64,000 bases of DNA from assembly GCF_009914755.1 (NCBI RefSeq), contig NC_060930.1. The stretch is one strand, 5' to 3'. A program made the translations under genes and the position numbers. This document shows positions 4,160 to 42,982 of the stretch, one piece after another (position 1 is the first letter of the stretch; every line of letters begins with the position of its first letter). Source of the DNA: the human T2T-CHM13v2.0 reference genome, Homo sapiens. The notes below the pieces were generated by a model. It worked only from the letters and a program-made list of their open reading frames with translations, had not been told where the DNA came from and ran no database searches.

Positions 4160-6770
<2,611 letters not shown>

Positions 6771-9133: not shown

Positions 9134-9331
<198 letters not shown>

Positions 9332-10890: not shown

Positions 10891-13029
10891 TAATCCATCC
10901 AAGTTTTCCAGCATTAATTCTTACTTGTCATAGAGGACCACTTGACTTCTGCCCTTCTAAAAAGTAAACACCTTCATGCACTGAAACTTTTGAACACAAT
11001 ATTCCCACTATAAAGATAAACATGACAATCTCTTAACTTACCATTCCAGCACCAACTAAAATGGCAATTCCATGACATTTCCTCTGTGAAATCTTTCCAA
11101 TTACTTCTGAAAGAATTACCTGCTACCCTCTTTCACTTCCTTAAACAACCCATACATATCTAAGTATTCAGACCAATATAAAACATAAATGAAGTCCAAA
11201 CCCATTAGTTCCTCAAAAGCATGAACTGTCTCACTTACCTTATCTAAATCTAGTACAATGCTAGGCATTAAAAAATATTCACTCTTGCTGAATAAATTTT
11301 TAAAAGGTATATTATAAAATATATGAAAAATATTGCCATGAGTATAAAGAAGGGAGCAATTAGTATCAGCCATACAAGTATATGAGAAGATCTGATCAGC
11401 TCAGAATTTTAGGGTGGGCTTAAATGGTAAGAAAAGAGAGCAAGAATATTCTGAAATGAAGTAGTAGTAAGAAAGGTAAAAGGAAAAAGAAATTACATGT
11501 ATTACATGCATAATTTCATTTATAAAAGAAAACTAAAATTCAATAGGATAAAATAACTTGTTTAAGGTCACCAAAGTAGAAGTAGTAAAAGCAGACAGAA
11601 GTAAAAGTTCAAATGTCTTATACTTCTTTCCTGGTTTGCTGTTGGAAAACCATGTTGCAATACTGATGAATAATCTGATATAGCTCAAGTTTACAACTGA
11701 AAAAAACACATTTAAAGTATGTTGTATGGTGCCAATACAACAAGCTAATTTATTATTATAATAACTCAAATCTATTTTTCCCTAACTCTGAGAGATTTCC
11801 CAGAATAAATTTTATTATCTGGATTTGCAAATAAAAAGCTAAGGTTTTTTTTGAAAAGAATTTTGCTTTTGTTCTGTTTTTGTATTAACCAATTTTAGAC
11901 TCAATAAGTCTAAAATATGACAAAAAAAGATTTTTACTCTGAATTCTGAGAATCAGAACACTGAAAAATTTTGGGACTCATTACAAAGCCAGTATTATTG
12001 CTATGGATTCTCTTATGGATACCAACAACTGGTATCTATTTCATTTTTAAGATTATGCCTATTTTATATGGAAGAAAGAATAATGGACTGAGAATCAGAG
12101 CTGAGGTTAGAGTCCCTGTGATTCTATGACACATTACCATTAAATTTTGAATTCTCTCAACCTGCAGGACTGGAATATCAAAGATACAGGATTAAATATT
12201 GTTTATGAAAGCCCTTTATAAATTGGTAAATGGATTTAAAAAGTAATAATAATAATTAATTAGCACTGATACTTTAATAAATGAGTCTTTTCCTTATTTC
12301 CCTGTGTCTGAAACCCTAAAGTAGCTATCTATTTTGAGGCTTGGGAACAATCTGATTTTGCCAATTCCTCTCCGAGAGACTGAAGACATTTCTCTTAATT
12401 TCAGTCCTATGACCAGAACTTCTCTAATACTGAAACTTATCTAATCTGAGTCTGAGTATCTGTCCATACTTCTCGAATACTACTTATTCTTTGAGTTCAT
12501 GCTGTGTCCACGTACTGAGACACATTAATCTCACAAACTCCAGATAAGTCCACTGGACTGCACTACTCTAGGAGTAGCAGCAGGAATGATTCCTCTAATG
12601 CTTCTTCTCACCCTCCATTCTAAGTGGACGTGTCTAATTCCAAGAGGAGCCCCTTCTATCCAGTATGTCCATCTTTATTGCAACTTCATGCTAAATCCTT
12701 TAAGAAAAATAAGATGCACGTTTGAGGTTGATTTTTTCTGTGCTCCTTACAGAATCTAATTTCATTATTTAAAAGTCACTCAACACAAAAGCTACTTAGA
12801 AGCTTTTGTTGATTGAAGTCTAGAACTTAAAATATTTTCATAAATATTTTTCTAGTCTAAAAATATAGTAGAAGTATTCATAATGACAAAACTGGTTTAA
12901 CCTTCTTTACAGAACCTTTCCTTATTTTTACTTAATACACTAGTGCTGCATTTCTTGTCAAAAGAGGGAAAGCAGTTTGTAGACTTTGACTCCATTTTAA
13001 CTCTCATTTAATTCTTCAACACTCCATTA

Positions 13030-14978: not shown

Positions 14979-15399
14979 CCCCCCAAAAACTGGACAGGAT
15001 CTTTAATAAAAAACATTAACTACAATCAGGTAATATAATACATTTTTAAGAGCCACATGAAAGCCACAGATTTGTACCCTAGATAAGTACGTATTATCTA
15101 TATTAAAAAAACATTTTACATAATTTCAGAGTCCCACTATGGATAACATCTTCCATCTCCAGTTTATATACCCCAAGTTAAGAATTCCAATCTAGATTGC
15201 CCCAGGAGGCTAAGAGTTATTTTTTTCCTGAAATATGCAGATTTTCAAATAATAAGCCCTATTAAAGTGAGATTTAACTGCTGTCTTCACCTTCCTTTCC
15301 GAAACTAAGTCTCCAGACTACTTAACACAAGATTCTTCGAATTTTATCCTGAATGTAAAGATGCTGATTCTCACCCACTCCAAAAACATACAACCCCTA

Positions 15400-15609
<210 letters not shown>

Positions 15610-16093
15610 CTACCATTAAAATGAAAAGAATTGGTCACTATTATTACAATAATTTTAAGATAAAAGCATACATCCTAATGAAGTGAAGATTAAGTAAAAC
15701 AAGCATTGTACAGTAATAAAATTTATGAATATTCATGAAAAGTGCCAGATTAATAGCCTTGAAAAATAAAGTATTCTATCCACAGACCAAACACAATTCA
15801 GGAAATAAAAGAATACCAACTCCCCCACCCATAGAATTCTGCTTCATGTTTTAAACTCAGATTTAACACATAATTATGTCTTACACTCCATCTATCTCCG
15901 TTCAATCATGCCCTTTCTGCAAAAGCTGACATGTAGCAACTGTACGGATTTTTTGGTAATTCTTGGAAGTAGTAGCCAGAGATCATTGCTCAAATGACAC
16001 TAGATTTTATTATTTTTGGTAATAAATTCCCTGGTAGTCTGACTCGTCTTTTAAATGGTGAATTTCAAAGGTTAAAGAAAAGGTTTTTTTTAC

Positions 16094-16255
16094 CTGATAA
16101 TTGTTTTCTGTTTTCCAGTTCCATTAATCCAGAACGAATGGGTTTCCTCCCTGCAACCTGTCAATCAAACAGAGGTGGCCAATCACCACTCTGAATTTTT
16201 TGCTCTCAGTGCTTCTTCAGACTATGTTCCAGTTGAAAACTTCTTTAGCAGTGTT
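16094..16255 (-). other. Candidate 162-nt poison (NMD) cassette exon in intron 15
   Basis: Acceptor tttttacctctttcag, donor TATCAG|gtaaaa; in phase 0 reads NTAKEVFNWNIV* with TGA at 16219-16217. Confidence 0.5.
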
Positions 16256-19200
16256 CTGAAAGAGGTAAAAATTCTACCCTATCTAAAGCACATCTAGGGA
16301 CTGAATTTCAGAAACAACTAAAATAGGGAGTTGACTCCCTAACAAATAACAACTAAGGATGATTTTCAACAAATGCTGTTGGATTTCTGGATTAGCAGAA
16401 TCGGAACACACACACATTATCAGGTAAGAAATACCTCCTTTCTGTTCCGGTATCCACTGATCTAGAACAAATTGAGCTTTATTAGTAATATCCCAGGAAA
16501 TGCTTGGAAAAGAGAAAGGTAGTAACTTTCTTTCTTTAGTATTAAAAATGTGGCATAAGGATGGATGTACAGTTCACCAAATGCAGAAGTTAAAATTCAG
16601 AAGAAGAATAACTGATTTCTCAAGGAAGGTTTGCATTTTGGTAAAAAGAGAAAATATTTCTATAAAAGAAAGGACTTTACCTAAGAAGTTAATACAATAC
16701 CACAAATGGGATTGCCTCAAAAAGAAAGCTAGCTTTTTCCTTTGGCTTGCTAAAAAGAAGAAATGTGTGCAACAGTGCTTATTAATGCTCTTTTGGATGG
16801 TTACAATAATAGAAAAGAAAGAATAACTTTTTAAAAAATGTAACCATATTAGATAAAACTAGGAAAATTACCTAATGTTTAATATACACAAAAACTTAGA
16901 AAAGAAAGGAAATGAATCATAAGTGAAACAGGATTATATCTCGAGTGTGAAGAAAGTTGGAGGATGATAAGATAGGAGAAGAAGGTAACTGATTCCAAGT
17001 CTACTTTAAAACAATTCAAAAACAAGAAAGAATATAACTATTTCTCCAGATTACCATAAGGGCACCAGGAGCCATACAGCTAGGCATTTGCCAAAAATGA
17101 AAGACTATAAGTACAAATTCAGGATTCAAGTCTTTATTTTTCAGTGTTTTCCTAGGCAAATAAAAAAAAAAGTTACATGAACTGTTATAAATAAGCAACC
17201 ACATGAACAAAGTACACCTCTAAATAGACTTTTATATCAAAAACTAAAAATTAGGGGATTGAAACTGCCTTAGCCATGTGTTGTTAAATGATTTTTTTTT
17301 AACTCAGTTCACTCAAAATTTCACAGAAGCCAAGAGAGAGAACAAAAAAGCAACTACTTTATAAATCTACTCTAATAAATGTTTCCAGAAGTATAATTAC
17401 AAGTCTAAGATTACAATTTGAAGTAGAGTGGAGACTTGAAAGTAGTCCAATTTAGCAATTTCAAAGGAAATCTGATAAATGTTCCTAAGCATGGTATCCT
17501 TCATGTGTTGTTTAAACAAACATTTTTTCTTTTTGGGGGTGAGGGTTGCGGGGCAAGTAGGACTGATCAACCCTTGACCCTATTATTTATCAATGTTGCC
17601 ACATTTACAGTTAGTAGATCTCTAAAATAATCTTGGGGACAGTTGAAGCTTATAAAGCTCTAAAAGAGCAAAGAAAAAATAGCAATCATATTTAAGATGC
17701 CTGTGTGTCCTATATAACACATTTCATTGTGAATATGGCAAGACAGTATTAATTTTCTTGGTATAAGGCATCTGTTTAACTCCAAAGTGACTTTTATATG
17801 GAGAAAATGAAAGTATATTTCAATCATATCAGAAAAAAGAAAAGGATATTATTTGGATTAACCATTTGTTTACTAAAGGAGGCATTAAAAGAATCTGCTT
17901 TACTCATGAACCAGTTAGAAAAGGTGCCTCTAACTTCATCAATTAAAAGACCAACTCTCTATTTATTAATAGATCCTCAGACAATAAACACCCATATCTA
18001 TAAACTGCAGACTAGGTTTTCCAGACCAGGCTTCCAAACAGTTGATGATATAAAACAGGAAAATATTTTACTTTCTCTATATTAACTAAAAATAGCCTAA
18101 CTGGTTTTAAAATGTATGGTACGATTAAGTAAGCCAATCAAAAGAAAAGAATTTTATCTTTTTAAACAAGGGTCAAAGTATTTATGAGTAAGAATTCTCA
18201 AAGACAAAATTTTAAATGAAGGCACTATTTGAATATTCACATCTACTAGAAAGCAGTAAGGTTTATCTTCAAAAACGAAAAGAAAATACCCTCTCTCACC
18301 AAATGAAAGGTATATAAGCCTATCATAAAATTAAATGCACTGCGTATCAAGAAAATGTGTCAACATAAAATTTAATACTACATATAGCTTATGCTAGCTA
18401 GCACTTACTGCAGTTGTAGTAAAATAATTAGAAATAGAGTGAAACTAATAAGTAATGAGAAATTATCAAAATAAGTGCATTTTAGATGAACTATTCCTCT
18501 AATAAAATCAAGTATGCTTGTTATGCATTCTTTTGGATATATAGAAATAAAGACCACATAAAGCTCATAGACATTAAATATCAATAAGGTTTAGCTGAGA
18601 TAATCTATGAGACAGTATTTACCAGTAACTGTGAAAACTTCAAAAAGAATAAGAGGAGTAAAAAGAAAATAAAAGTATATTCAGCAATTATTGTATTTTG
18701 TTTTATTTTTAAAAGGAGGAGATGGGAGGATCAGATGTGTTAAAATAATGACTCCCTTATTTGAAAATTCTCATACTGACTAAAGAATTCTATAAATACT
18801 ACCAATAAATGAGTAGTATAAACTTGTTAGGCATTTAGAGATTTATACTAAACTTTAAAGAAATTAAATGATACAAAAACTTATGAGCTAAGAGCTCTGA
18901 TGAGGACTCATTAAGGAAAGAATACTAATACCTTTTTTGAGGGAAGGTACTATACACAACTAACATAATTTTCCTGAAGCAGAAAGATGAATGATTAGAC
19001 AGAGGAATGAGGTCGAAGACCCAAGACATCTCTCCATCAGTAATAGGTAAATCACCTAATCTCTGTGGAATGATGGAGATAAATGATCACTAGAATCCAG
19101 TTCTAAAATCCTACCATCTGAGGTTCTGAAAGGTATGTTGAAAAAAACTGGACAAATCTGGAGATGAAGTATATTAAAAGCAGAATGCATACTAAAATTC

Positions 19201-19632
19201 AGGATCTCAATTATATCAATCATGAAGAATATACAGAGAGTGAATATGAGAAGTATATGCTTCTAGAAAACCTTAACACAAAGTAGGAAGGTTAAAAAAT
19301 ATGGGCTATCTTAGGCAGAACCATCCTCTTCTAGAGTTATTTCAATTCTATTAGCAGGGTCAGTATGTCTTGTTCTTTTTTTTTTTTTTTTTTTAAGCAC
19401 ACCGTTCATTAGAAGAAAGCATCTTACCTAGGAAATACTCCAAAATTTTAAATTATGTATGCAACTTTTAAAATACCCTAAAATAATCTTATGAAATGGA
19501 CTCATATACCAAGAATGAAAAGAGGTGATAAATGGAATTTATGCTAAGAATAACCCTTAAGAAGTCCTTCCTTATGTATTAAAAAAACTTTTAGATTAGA
19601 GCTTGCCAACCTAGGGAAAAATATGTAAACTA

Positions 19633-19922
<290 letters not shown>

Positions 19923-20289
19923 TCCAAATTCCAACAGTTCAGGTGTTATCAAATTACTTTAAAATAGTTATTGCATGGCTGTTTTAATCTTGAAAATTCT
20001 TTAACTTATGCCAACATAAAAAAGGAAACTGCTGGACCTGACTTGATAAAAATCAGTAGATCAGATTATTACATAAAATGAAAAAAAAATTATTATATAA
20101 AAGTGATTCTGAAAAATCAGCTCTAGATTTTCATCAAAAGAAAAATATTACCAAAATAAATATCTTCAAATTTAACATCATTTTGTACCCATATTATGAT
20201 TTCTCTGGGGAGAGCAATACTATTGATTAGGCCTTCCTTGAGGCTTATTTTCTTTTGGTCTTTTTGGCATATTAGCATGGTGTGTCTTC

Positions 20290-21378
20290 CTTGACACACC
20301 CTCTAAGGATTGTGACCCCTTTTCCATTCTGCTAAATATATGAGTATTTCCCAAAGTTTACTTCTAAGCCTTCTGCACTTCCTTCTCCTGTCTCCACGAG
20401 AAAGTAAACTATATACTATAAGAAACACTTCAACACTTTCTTCTTTTTACTCCTAGCCCCTCTAAGTAGTCTATCTCCAAGTGCCAGCTGGCCATTTCCA
20501 CATAGGTAGTTCAACGCAATAAACATTATTACAAATGAACTGAATAAAGAAGTCAGTTCTCCCTTATGTCTTTCATATTTCCACTAATAAAACCATTGTT
20601 CTCAAGGTCACCCGGGCTTAACACTCTATAAACCCATTTATTAAATCTTTCCTCCCTGTCATCCTATAGCCCAAATCCTAATATAGTCACAAAACACCAA
20701 GTCATTTATGTATTTTTTTCTTTACAAATTTCCTACCAACTACCCCTATAATATTTCATGACTAATTAAAGTAGTTGTCCTCACACTTATTCAATGTCAT
20801 ACCTGAAATTGTACTACTGGCAACCAAACTATTTTTCTCTTAGCTTCTCGACCATCCTATAAAATAATTTACTAAAGCCCCCACAAGGTTCATAGGTATT
20901 TATGCCTATGAGATCATTTGAAGTCACTGACAGTTCATCTCAATTTGTTTTTCGTCATTATTTCCAAAATCTACTGCAATCAAGCTTCCTAAATATCTAA
21001 ATTTCTATGAACATGTCTTGACACTTAGCTTTTTATAATGTTCCTCTTGTTTATAAAATTCATTCTCTTTCTTACTGACTCGATTCCTATTTATCTTTCA
21101 AGGCATAGTTTCAATTCCTTCTCCTCAACAAAACGTCTCCAATCGTCCACCCTGACAATGATCTCTACATCTTAAGATACAGCAACTGTCTTTTCTCATT
21201 TGTCATGCTACTGTTTGAAATTATTTATCAATATTTATCCCTTAAGGTATATTTTGTATATTTTGTCTCCCCAACTTAACTGTAGGCTGACTAAAAAGAC
21301 CACGTCTTATTCTCCCTTGTGGTCCTCATATTTTGTGCTTAACACAAAAGAAAACACTCAAATATTTGTTAAAATGTT
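20290..21378 (+). mobile_element. Diverged L2 fragments
   Basis: CT-rich L2-like stretches ending tgcttaacacaaaagaaaacactcaaatatttgttaaaatg. Confidence 0.45.
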
Positions 21379-21774
21379 TTCATCTGCATGTTTAAATTCT
21401 GTATAATTTCATATACCTTCTCATATAACTATCAAATCTCAAATACCCTTGTGATAGCAAGTCATGGACTATGTCAAAGAATTACTACATAAAAGTAATT
21501 TACCACATATAATGCAGTGTGAGAAGCTGGAGAGACAAACTCACATTCATGGCAACAGATTAACATGCCTTTTGTACCAAGATATATATATATAAGAGAG
21601 ATATAATCTAAAGAATCTTAAAAGCTGAAAGAAAGTGATAATTACTAAAGTGTATGGTAAGAAGACCGAAAGTACTTCCTTACCCAAAGAAGCTGAAACA
21701 TAGACTGGAAGCATCAGAGAGTCCTTTTAACACAGAGAGTATAAATATAGGACATTATCTTGTTAGATGATGAT

Positions 21775-21870
21775 AGGAAGAAAGAAGGAAGGAAAGAAGG
21801 GAGGAAGGGAGGGAGGGAGAAAGGGAGGGTTGGGTGAGGGAGAAAAGAAAAGAAAGAGAAAGAGAGAGAC
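21775..21870. repeat. Purine-rich (GGAA/GGGA/GA)n low-complexity tract
   Basis: ggaagaaagaaggaaggaaagaagggaggaagggagggaggg...gagagagac. Confidence 0.9.
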
Positions 21871-24769
21871 TCTTCTCCTGATTAATAAGAGATAACACAA
21901 TATGAGCTGTACCTATTTTGAGCTTCTCTTTCTCCCTTTCCTAGATACATACAGCTACAATTATCTAAAACTAAAGTACAGGTCACACTGAGAACATGTT
22001 AACATCAGAAGAAGTATGCATGTACAAAAATTCTGGGTGGTAGATTGGCAGCCTCTGCTCGTTTGGAACGTTGCAAGGAGAAATATATTGTTCTGGATTA
22101 GTGGACACTGGAACTTTTTTTTTTTAAAAAAATCTCTTAAGTAAAAGAAAGGTTAAGAGAACAATTATAAAAATAAGGAAAACTTTAATCAAATAAAAAC
22201 TTATTTGGAATTTACCCATGAAACAACAAAAGTAAAGCAAAAATCAAATTCAGTAAAACTGCTTTCTATTAAGAGACATACTATACTCTTTGATTAAAAT
22301 GAAAACCAGACAGGAGGCAACAAACTACAGCTTTGAGTAATGACAGAAATAGAAAGATATGGAAAGAGAGATAGAGACACAGCTAGGGCTATAGAGAAAA
22401 GAAAGAGTAAGAGAAATAAAGCAAAACCGCCAGAAACATGAGGAAAGCTACTAAAAACATGGGGTCTACAAATTCAACTCCAAGCATCTCTTATTTACTA
22501 TTTAATATTCAAATGGCCTAGTACTAAGAAATGTGAAAAGTCTCTATCTTTTCAAATTAATTTAATATTCATTTAGTTAAACTCGTAGTTAAAACTTAGC
22601 TGTCCGGTGCTAATTTAATGGGGAATAAAAGACCATAAAACAATTTATATTTAGGAACATTTAAGGTTATAATTAACTTCTAAACCTGGCGACCTCTTTC
22701 ACAGAAGGCCCTCAGCTTCAGTCCTGAGAGTTGCACACATTTTCAAGCTATTTCTGGGAATTATTTATCTGCCTTTTAGCATTTAATGGGAGTATAGAGC
22801 CTTTAGAGTTTAGAACAACTCTCATCAAAACAAAGCTATTCTGATGTTTACCTCCTGCCAATGCCAAACAAAAGTGGGCTTACTAAGTTATACCCAACTA
22901 TTATAGTTTGGAATATTCTTAATATACACTACTTGCTTCAGTAAAATATCCAAATATATACTACATTTCCTCTGAATACTCAAGTTATGTAAGGACTGTT
23001 CAGTTGATTCGTAAAGAAATAAAAGTACTGAAGGCCTAGAATGTAGTTTGTTTGTTTTTAAAGAATAAAGTTGTCTCATAATATTTTCTACAAAATTCTC
23101 TTTGGTTTCTTCTCCTGTTCACTTAAAAAAGAAAAACAACAACAACAAAAAGAACCACAAAGGCTTTCCCAATAAGTGCTTTTAAAAGTTTTTAGTTAAA
23201 GATGAGACAACAGAAAGGGTAGGGGGAGTACAAGCTACATATACTGTCTATTCCATTTCATGCCCTATGTTAGCCTCTTTTAAAACATCATCTCACGTGT
23301 CATATACTTCTTATAAGTAACAAAAACAAACCCAGCACCCACTCCCCAACTGCTTTTATCATTGAGATCCTCTATTAGGAGGAAAGTTAGCAGTAAAAAC
23401 AAGAAAAATAAACCCCTCAGTTTCTCTGGAGAATACTACTTGAAAGTTGAGAATCCATTTATAAGATTTCAGAATGAAGTAAATTATTTAAACATAAAAG
23501 AACTAAATAGCTTTATCTCAATTCCCAATCTCAAACTCTTTAATTTGCTGACAAATTTAGATGGTCCCAAAATAAAGCACAAGAAATTTTTAAAAGTATA
23601 AGTCATGGCTTGATACAGAAAAAAATTAGAATACTTATTACAATGATGACTATCAGTGCAATATTAAAATATTAATGTTTTATAATCTTATATTTAAAAA
23701 TTATTAAAATGTAATTACTATGTATCAAACAGGCATTTGAAAGTTCACCTTTTCACTTGAAAGGCTTTTTAACATAACAGGATTTTTGGCTATTTCTAAA
23801 ATTTCAAAAAAAGAATTTACATTTCCATAATTACACAAAAAATGCAGTAAAATGCTGATGAATACAAAATACTAAATTATATGTTACATGATTTCCATTA
23901 TCTTTTGCAAAGGTATAAATTTCCAATGGAAAATTCAATTATTATTCAAAAAGCAGGAGAAATATTAAAGTATTCTTAAAATATACTTGATAAAAACCAG
24001 TATTTAAGAAATTTGTACTAAAACTGTTATTCTAAAGGTATAGTCTACATTCCTTATTTTCTAGCTGTAGGTGGAATGGTGAGTTTACTTATCTGTTTTA
24101 TAAACTTCAGTTTTAACAGTCACATGAAATATTATTTAATCTTAAAAATACTTCACATAACTTTCACCATTTCTAGTCAAAAAAGGAGTATTCCACCAGA
24201 ATTCTTCATCCTCTAATAGACCAAAGCACTATATATGACTAGACCCTTCACATGGTGCTCAAAAAATATTTACTAAACTGAACTTGTGATTACTACTACA
24301 ACTTAACATTAGGGATTAAATTTGTATGCAATCAAGTATCGTGGTATTTTAGTAACTGAAAAACTTATTGATTAGCTACAGAGAGCCAAATAGCTATAAT
24401 TATAGCCAAAACTCAACATTCATGATAGCAAGCAGTGAGAACGCAGGCCCTCCCTCGAATTGTTTCTCTTTATTTTCTTAATAGCAATGCTGGATGCTTT
24501 ATCTTCCATTTGCCCATAAATAAAACAAGCAATGAAAAGAACAAAAGAGTGAAGAGCAAAAAGAATTAGGGCAATTAGATAACTCATAAAAGACAGACAG
24601 GAAAAAAAATCAAGTTAAAGAGTAAGATGTCAAAAGATCCACTCGGATTTATTACCATTATGAAAACATTTCTTCATGGACATATCACTAACTGAGTATT
24701 GTTAAAAGTTAGCTATGCAGTAACATTGACAAAAGCTCAAAAAGCCAACCATGACAAGATTTGAGTACA

Positions 24770-24975
24770 ACCAGAGTCATGGGTTTATGCTCCAAGTGCC
24801 CGCATAATAGCTGTGTGAACTCAGTAAATTGGGGCAAAGCACTTTATCTCTGTAATGTACAGTTTCTCCATTCCTAAGACCAAGAATAATAAAATCTATC
24901 TTGATCATCTTACAAGGTTTTCATGAGACCCAAAGGAGGTAAAATATGTGGGAGCATTTTGGAAACCATTAAACA
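24770..24975 (+). mobile_element. MIR
   Basis: atagctgtgtgaac...ggggcaaagcactttatctctg...cagtttctccatt...aaggttttcatgagac. Confidence 0.6.
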
Positions 24976-26696
24976 TCATACAAAAAATTAAAGGTAGTAT
25001 CTTTATTTTAATGAGATGAAGGGTGGCTCACTTTCTGTTTTTTAGCTTTTTTGGTTTATGTTTTGCTCACTGTCTGCAATTCTATGAATACTATCCAATT
25101 CAACTTATTACATGTATTTGTTTCTTCTGCTCTTTAGAGTTTTCCTATCTCTTATCCATAAAAAGAACCAGAAAAATATCCTCATCTAACACTCTTATTT
25201 AACAATAAACAATTTTTAAGGCAGTAATGTAACCAATCCCTCAGCTAATTTTTAAAAATATACAATATATTATGGCTGACTTCTACTCCTGGTTACATTA
25301 CTAATTTTTAATGGTCTAAGAGCAAATCACTTAACTCTCAAGGTGCTGCAGTTTTTGTTATCTACTGAAAAGGTAGAATATTAGTGTGACCAACTTACCT
25401 GATAAGGGAAAATTCACCTTTATATAACTGAAAAGTTAAAGCGGTATTCAATTATGGGAGAAAAGTTTCCCTCCAAACACTCTACCAATATAATAATGTC
25501 CTTTGGAAATACAAAACTACTAAATGAAGCCACTAGTATATATATAGCTCACATATTATTTTTTTTAAGCTATAAAGACAGATTGAGAAATGACTAATTT
25601 CCTTATTCAACAGATATTCCAAAAAGGAGCAAATCAGAAACACAAGGATAGAAAAGAAGAAAATATTTTTTACTAGCATATTTACAGGTGGCTTTTTAAA
25701 AAAATCTCAATACAATCACAAAGGAAATCCATCCATCACTAACAAGTGCACACCAAATAAACAACACTGTTTTCTAGAAATAGAGGGTTTTACAAACCTT
25801 ATTTCTTACCTAATGTATTCTAAGGCACAGCCTTAAAGATAGCTAAAGCTATTTCCCTCACTAAAAAATCTGCTATTATATCTGCTTACTCACGACATAG
25901 AAATAACTTTACTCTGATTATCAATCAAGCATAGCATCACATTCGTGTAATTTTTTCACAAACCATGTTTCACAACTGTTTTGTGAAATAATTTATTTGG
26001 CAAAATAATTCTGACCACATGTACTAATTGTATTGTTTTATGGTTCATTACTAAAGATTTCTATAATTGGTTTTTTAAAAAAATTTAAACATGCTGAAAT
26101 AGTGGAAACTGTTTTTTCTTTTGTTCTTTGTTGAAAGGTATCTCTAATATACAGAAAGTAGACATTTAAAAAATATGACTACACAAACTGCAGTAGTTGA
26201 GGAGACCTTAATACTTCATACAGTAAATAGAAACACTGCTCGGTAAGTTGTATGTGATATATTAAAACATTGTAATTCAAATACTTGGCCAATTATGTTA
26301 ACATCTAAGAAACAAAATGTGAAGAGAAGAGTATAAACTCAAATATTTAATATACTACCAATTGATTAAAAGCAAGAAATGCTTGATTCTTTGGCCTTAA
26401 TTTTAAAATCAGTGTACTTGAGTAAAATTCTATTATGCTAGAAGACTATTAAACAAGTACAATAATACGAGTATTTATTTATAATTTCTTCACATGGTTT
26501 TCCAAGTATTTTTTCTTCTCTATATTGTATCTTCATACTTGTGAATTTCCAAAGTTTCACTGCTAAAACTGATAAAACTGTATCAGTTATCACAATGTAC
26601 AGGCACTGTAATATGCACAATTAATTTTCTTTTAAATTCAGCATGTCAATAAAAGTGTGGAATAAATCATTCTTTATTGATGGGAATTTAAAGTCA

Positions 26697-26966
<270 letters not shown>

Positions 26967-29068: not shown

Positions 29069-29109
29069 CTGTTACTAGTGTTGGAAAACTGGATACTGTC
29101 AACTTTGTC
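29069..29109 (-). CDS. PHIP: PHIP coding exon (~exon 12), 41 bp, DKVDSIQFSNTSN(R); preceded by a 96-bp intron
   Basis: Acceptor tttatatatag, donor AG|gtaaaa; needed to keep the frame between its neighbours. Confidence 0.95.
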
Positions 29110-30882: not shown

Positions 30883-31853
30883 CTGTAATACAAAAAATAA
30901 AGAATTAAAAATATCCTAAAGGAACCAGTAGCAGCAGAAATAATCTGTTTCAAAAAATAATCCCAGAAGGACAAAATTAAGAAGCAACAGATGGCTCCCT
31001 TCCTAAAAACAACTTAGAAATCATTATGTGTCATAAATCAGAAGATCTTGTAGAAATTCTAGATATAGATTTTGTAGGAGCTCCTTATTACACAACAATA
31101 CGTACATGGAACAATTCCAAATTCACTGTCACACCAGACATGCAGTTACTAGTTACACTTACTTCTAATCAAATTTAACATGTTCTCAGTTTTTCATATA
31201 GAATAGCAACGTACAAACATATAAGGAACTAAGCTATTCGCAAACATGAATACATTAGCAAAATAGGTGCTGTCTGTGCCTTATGTATACCATCAATAAC
31301 TGAACTTTTTCAGTATTTTACATTAATTAAGCTTTTCCCTTCTTTGACCTACTAATGTGATAAAACATGTCTTTTAAGACCCCAAAAAGTAGGGATATTA
31401 CATTTAACCTAGTGAAAATCTGAAGATACTTTGACTCTTACGTCAACTACAATGAATGCTCATTCAAAATAGCAGTCTACAGAAAACAGGTTACCCACAG
31501 CTGTATTTACATTAATTGCCTAACTGTATTACAGATTACATATTTTATATCAATACTACTGATATTAAATGTTTAATGTTACAGTCAACCAATTAGAGAA
31601 AATGAAGATTTTTATCATGACACCAGCTCTAATACATTTAACAATGTGTATGTGATGTTCCAATATACTGATTATATTTGAAGCCCTACTTACTGTACAT
31701 TTTGGCATAGTTCTTCTACACTATTTGATGAAATGCAAAAATAATTAGAGCTTAAGCCTATATAACTTTCACAATATATAACAAATTTAGAGCAGTTTTA
31801 GTTTTGTGATCATTTACTGGAAAAAAGTATATACATAAAATATTTCTGAGCTA

Positions 31854-31956
31854 TAGGTTGGTGCAAAAATAATTGCGGTTTTGCCTTTTTTTAAAAAAAA
31901 AGCTTTTTACCATTAAAATAATGGCAAAAACTGCAATTATTTTTGCACCAACCTAA
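31854..31956. mobile_element. MADE1 (Hsmar1-derived MITE), palindromic, with extended centre
   Basis: taggttggtgcaaaaataattgcggttttgcc ... ggcaaaaactgcaattatttttgcaccaacctaa followed by TA. Confidence 0.92.
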
Positions 31957-32348
31957 TATATATTCTGAGCAAAGAGAATTATCTTTTTTACTGATACAGA
32001 ATGCAACAAAATGTTAAGAATTTAAAAAATAAGTTTGTAAATAGTTTTACATTAGTATTTACAGCAAATTCTATTAATATTCACAGGCTCTAATGTAACA
32101 GATGAGCAGAACAAATCTCATTTAGAGAGACAGATATTAGAACATTCTTAAAACCTAAACATTTATTCAGAGCAAAATTAACTGTAATTTAAGTAAATTA
32201 ATCTGAATTATGAAGGCAACTAAATGCATTGCTTTCATTACTACCTTATGGATTATAGCTCTAGATTTTTTTTAATTTTTGGTACATCTGCTCACATAAG
32301 TTCCAAGCAACCATTTACCTGAAACTCATTACAAAAATATGCAAATAG

Positions 32349-32582
<234 letters not shown>

Positions 32583-32846
32583 TAAAATTTTATAAGTTAA
32601 ATTACAGCCAAATGACAAAAGCAATGAAATTATATTTTAAAGTATTAAATTAGTGTGACAATGTAAGTAATTATGTGTTTGTTTACTTGTTTAGGTTTAA
32701 AGCAAATCAGTAAGGTTAGTTTAATGGAAAACACACACACATAGATGCTTTGGAACCTGATGGACCATCATTTGAGTCTTTGTCATTGCTAATGTTACTT
32801 ATTTTTAGACACTTCTCTTTACACACTGGTGAATTATTTTGATTAA

Positions 32847-33278
<432 letters not shown>

Positions 33279-33849
33279 TGAAATCCTGTCATTTCTAACA
33301 ACACAGATGGAACTGGAGGTTATTATGCTAAGTGAAATAAGGCAGGCACAGAAAGACAAACATCACATGTTCTCACTTATTTTGGGGATCTAAAAATCAA
33401 AACAGTTGAATTCATGAGATAGTAGAGGATGGCTATTATAGGCTGGGAAAGGTAGTGGGAGGAAGAGGAGGGAGGTGGGGATGGTTAATGAGTACAAAAC
33501 TAATAGAAAGAATGAATAAGGCCTAGTATTTGATAGCACAACAGGGTAACTATAATCAATAGTAGTTATACATTTTTAAATAACTAAAGGAGTGTAATTG
33601 GATAATTTGTAATACAAAGGATAAATGCTTAAAGGGATGGAGACCCCCTTTAACACCATGTGATTATTATGCATTGCATGTCTGTATCAAAAGATCTCAT
33701 GTACCCCATAAATATATACACCTACTACATACCCACAAAAACTAAAATTAAAAAATAAAAAGATTTTATATTTTTAAAGGGAAAAAACAAGTAGCTACCC
33801 ATAATTTGTTTTTAGATGCATTATTTGAGGAAACATTTTTAAAAAGGGC

Positions 33850-34330
33850 CTTGGGCCGAGTTCAGTTTCTAGGTCTATCACTTATCAAGAGTGCGACCTT
33901 AGGCCAAGTTAACATTTCTGTACCTCAGTATCCTCATCTGTAAAACAGGGGTAAAACGGAACCTATTTCAGAGTTGCTGGGAGAATTAAATGAGTGTGAT
34001 ACATGTAAAGTGCTTAGTACAATGTCCAATATGCTCAATAAATATTAGTATTTTTATTAGGTTCAACAAGTTCTAGCCAATCCTTCAATGACTAACTGCC
34101 ACTTAGTTTGGCACAGTGGTTAAAAGGGGTTTCTGACATTATACCTCTAGTAGTATTTAAATCCTGGCTCCAGTACCACCTGCTAACAATGTAACCTGCT
34201 GTGCCCCAGGTTTTTCCCTTATCTGCCCCAGAGATAATAACTGTACCTTTCTCAAAGGGTTGTTATAGGGATTGAGATAACAAATGTGAAATGCTTAGTA
34301 CTAGCTTGGCAGACTAAGCGCCTAATAATC
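33850..34330 (+). mobile_element. Two adjacent MIR copies (~33850-34055 and ~34108-34330)
   Basis: gaccttaggccaagttaac...cctcagtatcctcatctgtaaaa...tgtaaagtgcttag...ctcaataaatatt; second copy ggcacagtggttaa...gggttgttatagggattg. Confidence 0.75.
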
Positions 34331-34794
34331 ACAAATAAAAATTTGTAATCATCATATTATATGCATATTTTAGGATTCCTAGTCTCTTTACACCTAAGTC
34401 TAAATATACTTGGACAGCTTCCTCCTACCCAGAGACCTCTGGAGCTAGCTTATGGTTCACTTAGCCACTTAGACTACCCATTTAAGAAACAGCATCTTTG
34501 CTCGTGAGTTGGTAATACACACATACAAGTGAATTTATAAAGATATTTGAGTTCCCAAAGTTGAATTGATTCATTCAACTAATGCAGATGCAGGATTTCT
34601 AAAGTCATTTCCCCCAGCAGAATATACAAAAGCATTATAGCTAAATACAATTTTTGCCTTTGATTATTAATTAAATCCTATGTGACATAAACAGTATAAA
34701 TCTATATCCTGCCAAATTTTTGGCAGTTTTCAACTATGTGTAAACACATAAAGAAAATAGGTGTTCCAAGGCTTATATCTAAAGAGCAATGGAT

Positions 34795-35122
34795 TGTTCT
34801 TGTTTTTGTGTTTTTAATAAGACAGGATCTTGGCCCTGTCGCAGAGGCTACAGTACAGTGGTGAGATCACAGCTCACTTCAGCCTTTAACTCCTGGGCTC
34901 AAGCAAGCCTCTCACCTCAGACCCCTGAGTAGCTGGGACTATAAGTGTGTACCACCATGTCTGGCGTTTGTTGTTGTTGTTGTTTGTTTGTTTGAATTTC
35001 TGTAGAGACAAGATCTTGCTCTGTTACTTAGGCTGGTCTCAAAGTTCTGAACTCAAGTGATCCTCCTTCCTTGACCTCCCAAAGTCCTGGGATTAGATAA
35101 GAATGAGCCACTGTGCCCAGCC
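34795..35122 (-). mobile_element. AluJ
   Basis: gagatcacagctcacttcagcctttaactcctgggctcaagc (J-type)...gagccactgtgcccagcc. Confidence 0.88.
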
Positions 35123-36245
35123 AGAGTACTCATTCTTATGCCTGAACTCTGAATTTAAAAATTTTAAGGGACAAGAATAGGAAAGAATATAGGAATAGGA
35201 AAGAATATTACTTATAAATACCTAGAAAAAACTTTGAAGTCCAAAAATAAAAAAATTACTAAGTTGTATATAACAACTCTATTGAACATAATGCAAGCTA
35301 TTAAAATACATATAAATATCTATGGTAAAATATTAAGAAAACAAAATTATATATATATTCCTAATTATATCTATATAAAAACATTCATGGAGAAAAAATA
35401 CTGTATTAGGGTAGTGGTTTATATGTGATTCTACATAAAGGTTCTGAAAAAATCATTTATATGGACAAGCTTACTTCTCAAGCATCCAGAAACATGAAAT
35501 GTTATTGTACTTAGCAATAAAATCCTCAAGAAGCACAAATAAGGTGTGAGTTTAATTCTGTAAAACATTTTCTGTTCCTATCCCAATTTGAACATTGCTA
35601 ATCACTTTTTCTTCTCTAAAACAATAAGACAGGAAAAGAGAAAGGTATCCCCATCAGGTCCATGAGGAGGTTAAAAAACAGTAGCAACAATTAACAATTA
35701 ACTATTGCTACTGTCCATATACATCAGTAAAATATTTCAACTTTTATCTATCTACAGAAAGACTTTAAATACGAGGGATGCAACTGAAGTGAAGTCAACT
35801 TGCTTTGTCCAAAGAACCATGTTTTAAATCACAATCTTTTTTCAAATGAAGTAGTTTTGTTACTCGAGCTACCATGGCCCCCAAGCTGCCATAAGAACCA
35901 CTCTACAAGAATGTTCATATACATGAAGTTAAAGAAGCATGTGTTGCATTACAAACAATTATCTAAACACTACTGTTTTTAAAATAACAAAGGCATACAT
36001 ATATTATTTTATTAAATAACTCAACTTGGGTTGCTAATTTATACATAGCAGTCAGAGATAATTACTGATATATACCTTCTAATCTGAATGACTTTCCACC
36101 CCGAGTGGCAGAAATGGCCATTTCAACACTGTGAAATCAACTGAATAATCAATTGAATACACTACTTTCTTGTTCAAAGACTATCCATGGAGCAAATACA
36201 CTATTTCCTCTCCCCACTACATCCACTTAAAAGATATGGTATAGA

Positions 36246-36595
<350 letters not shown>

Positions 36596-37178
36596 CTAGT
36601 CCTGGCCTTGCCAATTTTTAAACATAGTTTTAACTATGGGAAAGTCATTTAACCATTTCAGTGCCCTTAATCCAAAGATAATACTATCCAGCCAACTTGT
36701 TTTGATAAACCGAAGTATTAATATGGGCGACTGCACAAATGCAAAATGTTATTATGGGGAGGGAGGGGAATACATCTATCTACCTTGATGCAGTTTAGTG
36801 AAACTTCAATGATTCTGTCTCCCTACATTTTCCTAGATCTAAAATAAAATCTAAAGTTTATAGATTCAGTAGCATCAATAATTAAAATTATTCTAAAGAA
36901 CAGCATTAGAAATTCTTAAGATTAAGTTCTGAGCATCAAAAGCAGCTATTAAAACTATGCAGCACATAGAAAGGAGTGGTAATAAAACAGGTAAATGCTG
37001 AAGGAAAGAGCTAGGATTAGGATAAAGAGAAAAAAAAATGTGAACATGAGAAACTTTCTTTGAAACATAAAAAAAGGGGAGGAATAAAAATAAAACAGGT
37101 TAGTAAAGAGCCAAAAGAGGATTTCTATTATTTACTCAAGGAGAAAAAGTAAATGTATTCCTATTGTCGACTACTTTA

Positions 37179-37355
<177 letters not shown>

Positions 37356-37612
37356 TCACAGAAAAAAAATCTTTACAAGAGTGACACAGTCAAAATAAAA
37401 TCTACTTTTTGCCATACAAATAGCAACTAACAACAACAGTTAGAAAATGGCAAGAATTTACCAAGGTTATGTTATTTAAAGTCCATATATTTATAAAGAA
37501 AGCAGACATACTCCTGTCTTCATTTTAGTTGGCCTTATATACTGGATTATAAAGGTGATTATAAAAGTAACTTCTTAAAATTTAATAACCAAAAGTGACT
37601 TCATTAAATTTA

Positions 37613-37936
<324 letters not shown>

Positions 37937-38872
37937 TCAAAATCTTAACACTGATAAATCTACCTGTTCTGTCCACTTCTGAACAAGTATATTTTTAAAT
38001 ACCAAAAAGTGTTAAATACTTGTGTTAGCTTACACAAAGCTCTTTATTAAACCACTTAAAAAGAGCACTTGTGTACTCACCAGCAAATAAGAGAAGTGGG
38101 ATAAGATAATTAATATTTACCTTTGGTTCCCTATCTACTATCAAAGTACCCTCAATGTGGATTTCTGTAAAAGAAATTGAACTTCTGAAATAAAAAAAAA
38201 AAATCATAGCTGCAAAACAAATGCAAGCTACAATGGTGACTAATATTATCTATTTTGTTTTGTAATACAAAACTAAAAGTAAGCTTGTTTGGGGCTTTTT
38301 CTCTCAGGAAGCTGTGAGTTTCCTATCACTGATCTTCAGCTAAAAACATGACATTATCTAAAGCCAGTTATCAGAAAAAAATTAATCTCATCTGTATGAA
38401 GTCAATAAAAATACATAATTACTTGTTTACTCTGCCATAGTAGTGTAAGTCCAGAAAGAAATTGTAAAGGATATGGAGTTTCCTATGAATATCTATATTT
38501 ACAAATGAACATTCCCATTTTATATAGCCAAAATAGAGATAGAACATTCAGACTCTATTTTTATTTTTTATTATAATAATTTTAAATATATAAGAAAGTA
38601 GAAAGAATAGTATCGTTAATCCCCATATATCTACTTCCCAGATTCAAAACTTAATATTTTTGCCACATTTTCTAGTCTTTAACACAAGGTTAAAAGAGAA
38701 AACACACACTTTTGCAAAATTACTGAATATTTTACAGGATACAGTTTTACTAAGGGTTCATGTTAGAATGCTTAACGACCTTCCAATCTAATTCTTAAAG
38801 AAACACCTTCATATCTGACATTAGAAAGAACTCAGAGGACCTATGGAGGCATATAATTCAGACAACTTTCTG

Positions 38873-38932
38873 CATCATAGTGACAATAAATATAACATAT
38901 AAATCATCATACTGACAATAAATATAACATAT
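38873..38932. repeat. Tandem duplication, period 32 bp
   Basis: catcata(g/c)tgacaataaatataacatat at 38873 and 38905. Confidence 0.9.
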
Positions 38933-39227
38933 TAATGTTTCCAAACAGAGTATGTTAAATGCTGTATCTTAAATCAGACTCTGCCAATGATACCTAAAAC
39001 ACCCCCCAATTAACGATAAAACCAGTTCCTCTGATTAAGCTTTGGAGTAAAATAAATGGGTTACTAACCACTATAAAGACCAGTAAAACTTAACTTTGGT
39101 CAACTATCCATGTTGTTGTCTAGTATTCTTATCACATACCCTTAACCTCACCTCAGGCTCTTCATCTATAAAATACGGAGGTTAAAATGGATGGCCTTTA
39201 AAGTTCCCTAAACCTTTAAAATTAAGC

Positions 39228-42628: not shown

Positions 42629-42982
<354 letters not shown>

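What the first reader, a model, noticed from the sequence alone, without database searches (positions are those of the whole stretch)
16090..16475. Competing RNA pairings, including a U1-mimic strand, that could switch the candidate exon
Seen, in pre-mRNA order D (22114), C, B, exon/A. Block B reads UCUUACCUGAUAAU; it contains CUUACCUG like the U1 snRNA 5' end and can pair 12 bp with AUUAUCAG|GUAA, the exon's donor, with a second 10-bp helix (16385-16394 with 16125-16134). Block D can pair either with the exon body (long-range, ~120 bp imperfect duplex with several A-C mismatches) or with block C. B and D compete for 16113-16134. Local hairpins also occur at 16324-16341 (tagggagt-tg-actcccta) and 16170-16193. 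Inference: the pairings DIRS uses to circularise its cDNA may have been retained as a mutually exclusive splicing switch, sensitive to elongation rate or ADAR editing.
Basis: partly seen in the sequence, partly recalled or inferred. Interest (0 to 1): 0.78.

Follow-up and report, generated by a model that had tools for sequence, protein, structure and literature searches.

The report
DIRS retrotransposon relic in PHIP intron
The complementary RNA segments are real, but they are the leftover end and junction repeats of an ancient DIRS-type jumping gene sitting in a PHIP intron, and nothing yet shows that they switch an exon on and off.

Summary
The four blocks form one architecture on the PHIP-sense (minus) strand. 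It runs: left inverted terminal repeat D (22114->21970), two exactly abutting internal complementary regions C (16470->16444) and B (16443->16385), right repeat A (16252->16110), and a 34-nt right extension (16109->16076) that holds the candidate donor. This is the terminal layout that defines DIRS1-like retrotransposons, and its sizes match lizard and frog elements. No DIRS coding remnant was found, although the same scan finds a transposase fossil elsewhere in the window. The "U1 mimic" is the antisense of a CAG|GTAAGA donor used by the annotated + strand lncRNA, and its 8-mer occurs at chance frequency. The splicing-switch idea is unsupported. There is no PHIP-sense wobble bias. D competes with B for only 25 nt and leaves the donor-masking helix intact. 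The 162-nt pseudo-exon is in no listed RefSeq PHIP exon. Conservation could not be tested. Verdict: a new member of a known kind, moderate interest.

The parts
16076..22114 (-). Whole putative DIRS1-like relic (6039 bp, same sense as PHIP). It lies inside the 11.2-kb intron between PHIP exons 26805-26939 and 15451-15579. T2T chr6:80182076-80188114.
   Evidence: The ends are set by where the blastn alignments stop: A-end/B at 16076 and D-start/C at 22114. The size fits tetrapod DIRS1-like elements of 5571-6196 bp.
21970..22114 (-).
   Evidence: blastn against A: 112 nt, 75.9% identity, E 2.8e-14, inverted. The alignment spans 148 columns.
16444..16470 (-).
   Evidence: 23/27 (85.2%), E 0.005-0.01, abutting the rICR exactly at 16443|16444. 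Duplex energy -31.5 to -33.7 kcal/mol. It shares D's indel state rather than A's.
16385..16443 (-). 16408-16443 is the complement of the right extension and holds the U1-like TCTTACCTGATAAT (16416-16429). 16385-16407 is a copy of the ITR start.
   Evidence: 61 nt, 75.4% identity, E 4e-6 against 16076-16134, inverted. Duplex energy -48.5 to -50.3 kcal/mol. Present in the MFE and centroid folds.
16110..16252 (-). It contains the local hairpin 16170-16193.
   Evidence: hairpin sequence.
16076..16109 (-). Right extension (rE), 34 nt. It is present on the right terminus only, is complementary only to the rICR, and holds the candidate donor CAG|GTAAAA (exon end 16094).
   Evidence: Absent from D in the alignments. 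Pairs with 16408-16443 at -24.8 kcal/mol. Published rE range is 9-75 bp.
16094..16255 (-). Candidate pseudo-exon or poison exon, 162 nt, made of rITR plus part of rE. It has stop codons in all three frames.
   Evidence: The donor matches the consensus at 7/9 and is the same 9-mer as the real exon 29069-29109. U1 duplex energy is -8.4 (real exons -1.6 to -13.0). The acceptor has 12/17 pyrimidines (real exons 9-15). It is not among the PHIP exons listed in the supplied table.
16421..16429 (+). Donor CAG|GTAAGA of exon 1 of lncRNA LOC124901346 (exon 15573-16423). Its antisense is the 'U1 mimic'.
   Evidence: It is the only CAGGTAAG on the + strand of the window and matches the consensus at 8/9. 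The exon end at 16423 comes from the supplied annotation.
16324..16341 (-). Small local hairpin in the 132-nt spacer between the rICR and the rITR.
   Evidence: Sequence; formed in the MFE fold.

Best explanation
The region is the decayed skeleton of one DIRS1-like (tyrosine-recombinase) retrotransposon, about 6.0 kb long, inserted in the sense orientation in a PHIP intron. Its non-coding terminal architecture is still legible. It consists of a left ITR (D), two abutting internal complementary regions (C and B) lying 132 nt upstream of the right ITR (A), and a 34-nt right extension.

In a live element these complementarities let the cDNA ends anneal side by side on the ICR to restore and circularise the element. 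That step is established knowledge for DIRS-1, not something shown at this locus. All the competing pairings in the PHIP pre-mRNA are therefore an inherited consequence of this layout.

By accident, the right ITR plus extension carries a competent acceptor and a CAG|GTAAAA donor, giving a 162-nt pseudo-exon with stops in every frame. The rICR is the complement of the extension, so it necessarily looks like the U1 5' end on the PHIP strand. On the other strand it is a CAG|GTAAGA donor, which the annotated antisense lncRNA uses.

Inferred, not shown: in PHIP pre-mRNA the local B:A helix (250-nt loop) forms co-transcriptionally and buries the pseudo-exon donor. If it has any effect, it helps keep a poison pseudo-exon silent constitutively. 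It is not a regulated two-state switch.
For: Architecture:
- The ITR pair A/D gives E 2.8e-14.
- rICR against rE plus the rITR end gives E 4e-6.
- lICR against the lITR start is 23/27.
- The two ICR halves abut with no gap at 16443|16444, in the order and orientation required for the complement of a circle junction.
- The 10-mer TAATCCAGAA sits at the boundary between the divergent and conserved ITR parts. It is exact in A, B and D and matches 8/10 in C (3 matches against 0.37 expected, 0 of 100 shuffles reach 3).
- C shares D's indel state, and B shares A's, as expected for the 'divergent ITR' part.

Sizes: element 6039 bp, ITR about 143-145, rE 34, ICRs 27 and 59. Published tetrapod elements are AcDIRS1/2 (5938/5997 bp, ITR 166/162, rE 26/28, ICR 40-58/39-60) and XtDIRS2/3 (5571/6196 bp, rE 30/34, ICR 43-61/41-65), from PMC3266345 Table 3. 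ICR function is described in PMC7192593.

Not a dispersed repeat: two genome-wide pattern scans find only A and D plus chance-level hits. The first gave 5 hits, 2 of them A and D, with 2 control hits. The second gave 3 hits, 2 of them A and D, with 0 control hits.

DIRS fossils are known to exist in the human genome.

By-product reading: G.U against A.C on the sense strand is 10 against 14, and duplex energies are equal or better on the antisense strand. Both strands fold equally well.

Pseudo-exon competence and stop codons are shown. The donor is buried in the MFE and centroid folds.
Against: - No GAG, RT, RNase H or tyrosine-recombinase remnant was found in six-frame Pfam scans of the whole intron (0 families at E<=1 in 6 of 6 frames). 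The same method finds a DDE_1 transposase fossil (E 3.1e-10) and a PHIP WD40 exon elsewhere in the window.
- The terminal trinucleotide rule is only half met. The start GTT matches the junction AAC, but the right end does not read as expected.
- Copies that were identical at insertion are still 75-85% alike while the interior shows nothing. That pattern is not expected from uniform neutral decay of an autonomous element. It needs either constraint on the termini or a non-autonomous or replaced interior.
- A role in masking the donor is weakened by the + strand. There the mirror helix (-51.4 kcal/mol, z -4.49) coexists with an annotated, used donor.
- No other copy of this family was found to confirm the consensus layout.
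- No Dfam or RepeatMasker check was possible.
Confidence: 0.65

Rival explanations
1. The DIRS pairings have been kept by selection as a mutually exclusive RNA switch (D:A against D:C plus B:donor) that regulates inclusion of the 162-nt poison exon in PHIP, tuned by elongation rate or ADAR editing.
For: - The pseudo-exon has splice signals within the range of real PHIP exons and stops in all frames.
- The donor is buried by a strong local helix.
- A 148-column imperfect duplex with 8 A.C mismatches is a plausible ADAR substrate.
- The termini and ICRs remain 75-85% alike although no coding remnant survives, which is compatible with constraint.
- An abundant NMD-inducing inclusion event in PHIP, with no coordinates given, is reported in iPSC-derived brain cells (bioRxiv 10.64898/2026.01.19.700316; passages only).
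Against: - There is no sense-strand wobble bias (10 G.U against 14 A.C), and duplexes are no weaker on the antisense strand.
- D and B contest only 16110-16134. The donor-masking half of B (-24.8 kcal/mol, including the 12-bp perfect helix) has no competitor, and D:A would cover the exon body. All states therefore predict repression.
- The exon is not among the PHIP exons listed in the supplied table.
- The published conserved PHIP poison exon is a different one: 69 nt, in intron 37.
- 15 non-transition mismatches and 13 gap columns break D:A.
- No paper links PHIP to long-range RNA structure (0 papers).
Confidence: 0.08
2. The repeats are not DIRS-derived. They arose from local inverted duplications, or belong to another element type with long inverted ends (a foldback or DNA transposon with subterminal repeats). 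On this view the resemblance to the DIRS layout is coincidental.
For: - No DIRS protein remnant was found.
- No other genomic copy was found, and DNA and protein searches of the genome returned only the locus itself or E>3 hits.
- Piednoel et al. 2011 found no DIRS1-like elements in 37 mammals.
- The right-end trinucleotide does not fit the junction rule.
Against: This rival has to explain five features at once:
1. An extension present on one terminus only.
2. Its complement placed between two head-to-head copies of the ITR end.
3. Exact abutment at 16443|16444. The C match alone has E about 0.005-0.01 anywhere in 128 kb, and the chance that it lands within a few nt of B's end in the right orientation is of order 1e-6 (my estimate).
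4. The position just upstream of the right ITR.
5. All sizes within published DIRS1-like ranges.
DNA transposons do not carry an internal complement of their joined ends (general knowledge, not tested here).
Confidence: 0.15
3. The termini and ICRs are constrained, exapted elements, but for a role other than PHIP splicing. Candidates are DNA-level regulatory elements, a dsRNA/ADAR substrate, or parts of the antisense lncRNA LOC124901346, whose first exon contains A and whose donor lies in B.
For: - The decay of termini and interior differs.
- The human DIRS fossils that Frith 2022 lists as pre-amniote are shared with other vertebrate genomes, and that paper describes many old fossils as exapted (passages).
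- The lncRNA donor matches the consensus at 8/9 and is annotated as used (supplied table).
- Duplexes are slightly more stable on the + strand.
Against: - No conservation data are available.
- No RefSeq functional element is listed here; the only enhancer in the table is at 58658-59264.
- The lncRNA is a predicted model.
- No Rfam family matches A, B, C or D at E<=1.
Confidence: 0.1

Closest known systems
Tetrapod DIRS1-like retrotransposons (AcDIRS1/2 of Anolis carolinensis, XtDIRS2/3 of Xenopus tropicalis; Piednoel et al. 2011, PMC3266345, passages and Table 3 read)
   Same: The order lITR - lICR+rICR - rITR - rE is the same. A right extension only is present. The ICRs lie at the 3' end and abut. 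A 10-nt motif is shared by ITRs and ICRs. Sizes agree: 6039 bp against 5571-6196; rE 34 against 26-34; rICR 59 against 58-65; ITR about 145 against 122-166.
   Different: No detectable GAG, RT-RH-MT or YR coding sequence. The lICR is detectable over only 27 nt, against 39-43. The repeats are 75-85% rather than about 100% complementary. The right-end trinucleotide does not fit. It is a single copy in the genome. The host is a mammal, a group in which that survey found none.
Human DIRS/Ngaro protein fossils (Yao & Frith 2021, bioRxiv 10.1101/2021.01.25.428050; Frith 2022, PMC9004415; passages read)
   Same: Relics of YR retrotransposons in the human genome, presumably very old.
   Different: Those are coding-sequence fossils found by DNA-protein alignment. 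Here it is the reverse: the non-coding termini and ICR are legible and no protein fossil was found. PHIP is not named in the text or in the one held supplement. Their full site lists were not available to me.
Dictyostelium DIRS-1 ICR (88 nt = 33 + 55; essential for retrotransposition; Malicki et al. 2020, PMC7192593, passages read)
   Same: A two-part ICR complementary to the outer ends of both terminal repeats, lying upstream of the right repeat with a spacer. Here it is 27 + 59 = 86 nt.
   Different: The function is shown there by deletion in a live element. Here it is a dead relic transcribed as part of a host intron.
Splice-site occlusion by local RNA helices, and competing long-range pairings (MAPT exon 10 donor stem, SMN2 TSL2, Dscam docking/selector sites, inverted-Alu pairs). 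Recalled from general knowledge; no call.
   Same: A helix predicted to bury a 5' splice site, and a distant inverted repeat that can pair across the exon.
   Different: Exon use is not demonstrated. There is no conservation or covariation evidence. No alternative pairing frees the donor. There is no strand-specific signature.
PHIP poison exon 37a (69 nt, intron 37; Kovalak et al. 2021, PMC8091538, passages read)
   Same: A stop-containing cassette exon in the same gene.
   Different: It differs in intron, size and evidence: it is conserved and supported by EJC-RIPiT reads. The present 162-nt exon has no expression evidence.

Membership tests
DIRS1-like retrotransposon (termini as defined by Piednoel et al. 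2011) | Inverted terminal repeats of 66-316 bp bounding an element of about 4-6.2 kb | tested here: met
   A 16110-16252 against D 21970-22114, inverted, E 2.8e-14, 148 alignment columns. The ends are 6039 bp apart.
DIRS1-like retrotransposon (termini as defined by Piednoel et al. 2011) | Two adjacent ICRs near the 3' end: the lICR complementary to the start of the lITR, and the rICR complementary to the end of the rITR plus the extension | tested here: met
   16444-16470 against 22088-22114: 23/27. 16385-16443 against 16076-16134: 61 nt, 75.4%, E 4e-6. They abut at 16443|16444 and lie 132 nt upstream of the rITR.
DIRS1-like retrotransposon (termini as defined by Piednoel et al. 2011) | Right extension (9-75 bp) outside the rITR, complementary only to the rICR | tested here: met
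   16076-16109 (34 nt) is absent from D and matched by 16408-16443.
DIRS1-like retrotransposon (termini as defined by Piednoel et al. 2011) | A motif of at least 10 nt conserved in both ITRs and both ICRs at the boundary of the divergent and conserved ITR parts | tested here: met
   TAATCCAGAA is exact in A, B and D and matches 8/10 in C. There are 3 exact matches in the window against 0.37 expected.
DIRS1-like retrotransposon (termini as defined by Piednoel et al. 2011) | 3-bp circular junction complementary to the terminal trinucleotides | tested here: inconclusive
   The start GTT (22114-22112) is complementary to AAC at the lICR/rICR boundary (16446-16444). The right end does not show the expected trinucleotide. 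Published elements often differ by one base between start and end.
DIRS1-like retrotransposon (termini as defined by Piednoel et al. 2011) | Coding capacity: GAG, RT-RNase H-methyltransferase, tyrosine recombinase | tested here: not met
   Six-frame translation of 15580-26804 with stops read as X gave 0 Pfam families at E<=1 in 6 of 6 frames. The positive control worked. PF00589 in the whole genome gave only one E 4.2 hit, on another chromosome.
Structure-regulated cassette exon (competing RNA pairings) | The exon is spliced into some transcripts | not testable with these tools
   It is not among the PHIP exons listed in the supplied table. Literature searches gave only exon 37a and one event without coordinates. 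bioRxiv supplements are closed.
Structure-regulated cassette exon (competing RNA pairings) | Alternative pairings are mutually exclusive and have opposite effects on the splice site | tested here: not met
   D and B share only 16110-16134 as a target. The donor helix 16408-16443:16076-16109 (-24.8 kcal/mol) is uncontested, and D:A covers the exon body.
Structure-regulated cassette exon (competing RNA pairings) | Evolutionary support: conservation, compensatory changes, sense-strand G.U tolerance | tested here: inconclusive
   Only the strand test was possible: 10 G.U against 14 A.C on the sense strand, and antisense duplexes equal or more stable. No orthologous sequences were available.
U1 snRNA mimic or decoy | A U1-like 5'-end sequence beyond chance, with an independent origin | tested here: not met
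   CTTACCTG occurs 4 times against 2.1 expected, and 19 of 100 shuffles give at least 4. It is the antisense of the + strand donor CAG|GTAAGA and a copy of the complement of the rE. No Rfam hit.

The most novel reading that the evidence does not exclude
The non-coding termini and ICR of a Palaeozoic DIRS1-like element have been held under purifying selection in the PHIP intron while its genes decayed beyond recognition. On this reading the cDNA-circularisation pairings were co-opted as a pre-mRNA structure that governs a 162-nt poison exon of a haploinsufficient neurodevelopmental gene, possibly the abundant but unlocated NMD-inclusion event reported in brain cells.
Probability: 0.08. Interest if true: 0.8.

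Novelty: new member of a known kind. Interest (0 to 1): 0.42.

Why it matters
DIRS1-like elements were reported as undetected in 37 mammals (PMC3266345). Later work found only protein fossils in the human genome.

A human locus in which the full terminal logic of a DIRS1-like element (both ITRs, both ICRs, the right extension) can still be read would be a useful reference relic. It would also show how the built-in complementarities of a transposon seed strong intronic RNA structure and splice sites on both strands: a lncRNA donor on one strand and a poison pseudo-exon on the other.

The termini are well preserved while the interior shows nothing. If that contrast reflects selection, the locus would be a rare case of exapted retrotransposon replication structures. 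PHIP loss of function causes Chung-Jansen syndrome, so a repressible poison exon would also interest those designing antisense therapies. At present only the relic and its pairings are shown.

Tried and rejected
- Rfam at E<=1 over 15000-23000: only Alu-derived and chance hits, none at A, B, C or D.
- Coding origin of A and D. A 73-aa open frame on the + strand (16076-16297) and a 46-aa frame in D align, but 1-nt indels break the frame between the copies. A protein search of the genome gave only the locus itself plus 4 hits at E>3. Rejected.
- Dispersed repeat family. A DNA search with A found only itself. Two degenerate pattern scans found A and D plus 3 and 1 chance-level hits, with controls of 2 and 0. 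The three extra loci of the first scan gave only weak model hits (E 0.019-0.25, one locus). A sequence-only model over the window gave weak hits at 11784-12166 (E 0.06-2.7), judged to be chance.
- The genome could not be searched with an alignment or a model.
- Tyrosine-recombinase family PF00589 in the genome: one hit at E 4.2 on another chromosome.
- ORFs of at least 70 aa inside the element: 7, two of them in the Alu, none suggestive. I ran no further search on them.
- Literature. PHIP with poison, cryptic or pseudo-exon: many apparent hits were the author name 'Phipson'. PMC13042102 concerns exon 6 skipping only. PHIP with long-range RNA structure gave 0 papers. ICR with pre-mRNA and mammal gave 0 papers.
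- A (UG)n/TDP-43 link to a PHIP cryptic exon: no paper found.
Full report
**1. Observation**

PHIP lies on the minus strand, so pre-mRNA order runs from high to low coordinates.
- TCTTACCTGATAAT lies at 16416-16429.
- The donor context ...ATTATCAG|GTAAAA has its exon end at 16094.
- The 10-bp helix 16385-16394/16125-16134 is perfect.
- The small hairpins at 16324-16341 and 16170-16193 read as described.

The repeat finder joins the first two into one inverted repeat of about 55 nt (16081-16134 against 16385-16436) with about 250 nt between the arms. D (22114->21970) is an inverted copy of the exon body.

Duplex energies on the PHIP strand are -125.3 kcal/mol (D:A) and -48.5 to -50.3 (B:A end). 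The 421-nt stretch 16060-16480 folds with the B:A helix in both the MFE and the centroid structure, z = -4.09, and 0 of 100 shuffles are as stable. Among 766 tiles of the window, D is the best partner of A (-109.5; median -52.9, sd 9.1). Among 1933 tiles, B is the best partner of the donor end (-46.4; median -15.2, sd 4.1).

The acceptor AG is at 16257-16256, so the candidate exon is 16094-16255, 162 nt.

**2. What the blocks are**

In-window blastn gives three inverted matches:
- A against D: 112 nt, 75.9%, E 2.8e-14.
- 16076-16134 against 16385-16443: 61 nt, 75.4%, E 4e-6.
- 22088-22114 against 16444-16470: 27 nt, 85.2%, E 0.005-0.01.

Read on the minus strand, the order is: D (ITR, starting GTT) ... 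C (complement of the start of D) + B ... 132-nt spacer ... A (inverted ITR) + 34 nt (16109->16076). B consists of the complement of that 34-nt tail, which only A carries, followed by a copy of the ITR start. C+B is therefore the reverse complement of what results from joining the right end of the element to its left end.

That is the definition of the DIRS1-type internal complementary regions. Piednoel et al. 2011 give the order lITR-lICR-rICR-rITR-rE, with the ICRs at the 3' end. The rICR also covers a right extension, and a motif of at least 10 nt is shared by the ITRs and ICRs (PMC3266345, passages). In Dictyostelium DIRS-1 the ICR is 33 + 55 nt, complementary to both extremities, and essential for retrotransposition (PMC7192593, passages).

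The motif here is TAATCCAGAA. It is exact in A, B and D, with 0.37 matches expected by chance and 0 of 100 shuffles giving 3, and it matches 8/10 in C. The sizes fit the tetrapod rows of their Table 3:

| Element | Length (bp) | ITR (divergent + conserved) | rE | ICRs |
|---|---|---|---|---|
| This locus | 6039 | about 143-145 in total | 34 | 27 and 59 |
| AcDIRS1 | 5938 | 26 + 140 | 26 | 40-58 |
| AcDIRS2 | 5997 | 26 + 136 | 28 | 39-60 |
| XtDIRS2 | 5571 | 20 + 102 | 30 | 43-61 |
| XtDIRS3 | 6196 | 11 + 123 | 34 | 41-65 |

C shares D's extra base and B shares A's shorter form. This is expected for the 'divergent ITR' part, which follows its own ICR.

**3. What does not fit**

Six-frame translation of the whole intron (15580-26804, stops read as X) gives no Pfam family at E<=1 in any of 6 frames. 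The same procedure on 31000-45000 recovers a DDE_1 transposase fossil (E 3.1e-10) and the WD40 exon of PHIP. The method can therefore see decayed transposon proteins in this window.

The right-end trinucleotide does not match the junction rule. No other copy exists in the genome at the sensitivity available:
- A DNA search found only the locus itself.
- Pattern scans found only A and D plus 3 and 1 chance-level hits, with reversed-pattern controls giving 2 and 0.
- The extra loci showed no extended similarity beyond weak hits in one of three.

I therefore file the locus as a relic with DIRS1-like terminal architecture, not as a demonstrated DIRS element.

**4. An inference about age**

ITRs and ICR/termini are near-identical in a live element. 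Here they are 75-85% alike. This means roughly 12% change per copy (21.5% mismatches among the 135 ungapped D:A columns). If neutral, that would date the insertion to roughly early placental times (my estimate from general substitution rates, no call).

An autonomous element of that age should still show reverse transcriptase. The transposase fossil shows that such remnants are detectable. So one of three things holds: the termini decay more slowly than the interior (constraint), the element was non-autonomous, or the interior was replaced. I could not distinguish these, because no vertebrate genomes or conservation tracks are available here.

Published human DIRS relics are protein fossils, and those listed in Frith 2022 Tables 4 and 5 are pre-amniote. 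PHIP is not named in that text or in the one held supplement.

**5. The 'U1 mimic'**

CTTACCTG occurs 4 times in the window against 2.1 expected, and 19 of 100 shuffles give at least 4. One of the four is simply the antisense of the real PHIP donor at 9135.

At 16421-16428 it is the antisense of CAG|GTAAGA, the only CAGGTAAG on the + strand. This is the annotated donor of exon 1 of lncRNA LOC124901346, whose exon ends at 16423. It exists because the rICR must be the complement of the right extension, which happens to contain CAG|GTAAAA. It is a consequence of the repeat layout, not an independent decoy.

**6. The switch hypothesis**

The pseudo-exon is competent on paper:
- The donor matches the consensus at 7/9 and is the same 9-mer as the real exon 29069-29109.
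- Its U1 duplex energy is -8.4, against -1.6 to -13.0 for 14 real exons.
- The acceptor has 12/17 pyrimidines, against 9-15.
- It has stop codons in all three frames.

Four results speak against a selected two-state switch:

(a) Across the three helices the sense strand has 10 G.U and 14 A.C. The duplexes are as stable or more stable on the antisense strand: -131.8 against -125.3, -51.4 against -50.3, and -41.6 against -33.7.

(b) D and B contest only 16110-16134 (-21.6 kcal/mol of B's pairing). The half of B that buries the donor (16408-16443 with 16076-16109, -24.8 kcal/mol, including the perfect 12 bp) has no other complement among the blocks. C can pair only with B's ITR-like half (-18.4). 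D:A covers the exon body, and with B:rE it would form a pseudoknot rather than exclude it. So all states predict repression.

(c) On the + strand the mirror helix (z -4.49) coexists with an annotated, used donor. Such a helix is therefore not an absolute block.

(d) The exon is not among the PHIP exons listed in the supplied table. The published conserved PHIP poison exon is 69 nt and lies in intron 37. That event could be this exon or another.

**7. Most likely mechanism**

*Shown:* the repeat architecture and the predicted helices.

*Established elsewhere:* in DIRS-1 the ICR anneals to the element's ends to complete the cDNA.

*Inferred:* in PHIP pre-mRNA the local B:A hairpin forms as soon as the extension is transcribed and hides the pseudo-exon donor. 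It would contribute constitutively to keeping a poison pseudo-exon out of the mRNA. D:A may form at lower frequency and would be an ADAR-type substrate.

**8. Novelty and score**

In the held library I found no description of this locus, of DIRS terminal or ICR structure in a mammal, or of an ICR acting in a pre-mRNA. Dfam and Repbase could not be consulted.

It is a new member of a known kind. The relic is a good curiosity for transposon biology, and the regulatory reading remains an untested possibility. Interest 0.42.

Noticed in passing
window 44434-44805 (-): A DDE_1 (pogo/Tigger-type) transposase fossil, Pfam PF03184, E 3.1e-10. It was found while running the positive control for the six-frame scan.
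   Followed up: no
window 19673-19934: An Alu nested inside the putative DIRS relic. It gives sub-threshold Rfam hits to mir-1268, mir-3135 and Metazoa_SRP and carries an internal 35-nt tandem duplication at 19798-19867 (family D2).
   Followed up: no
window 16076-16297 (+) and 21983-22123 (-): A 73-aa stop-free frame runs across the right ITR on the + strand, and a 46-aa frame lies in the corresponding register of the left ITR. 1-nt indels between the copies break the frame, and a protein search of the genome found nothing beyond the locus itself. Probably chance.
   Followed up: partly
window 16111-16118/16119 and 16264/16265-16270 (+): The right ITR also looks like an exon on the + strand: a pyrimidine tract plus CAG acceptor before 16119 and a GAG|GTAAAA donor after 16264. 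These are the antisense images of the minus-strand donor and acceptor regions. The annotated lncRNA exon 15573-16423 reads through both.
   Followed up: no
window 16408-16419 (-): A short (UG)n run lies immediately 3' of the U1-like motif in the rICR, on the PHIP-sense strand. UG repeats are the recalled binding motif of TDP-43, a repressor of cryptic exons. No paper linking PHIP cryptic exons to TDP-43 was found.
   Followed up: partly
window 11784-12166 (-): Three weak matches to the sequence-only model of the ITR (E 0.06, 0.13 and 2.7) cluster in the next intron downstream. They were judged to be chance on reading the sequence, but this was not excluded rigorously.
   Followed up: partly
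window 21772-21875: A CT-rich simple repeat lies about 100 nt inside the left ITR. It gives fairly strong non-specific duplex scores with A in the tile scan (-82.3 for tile 21664).
   Followed up: no
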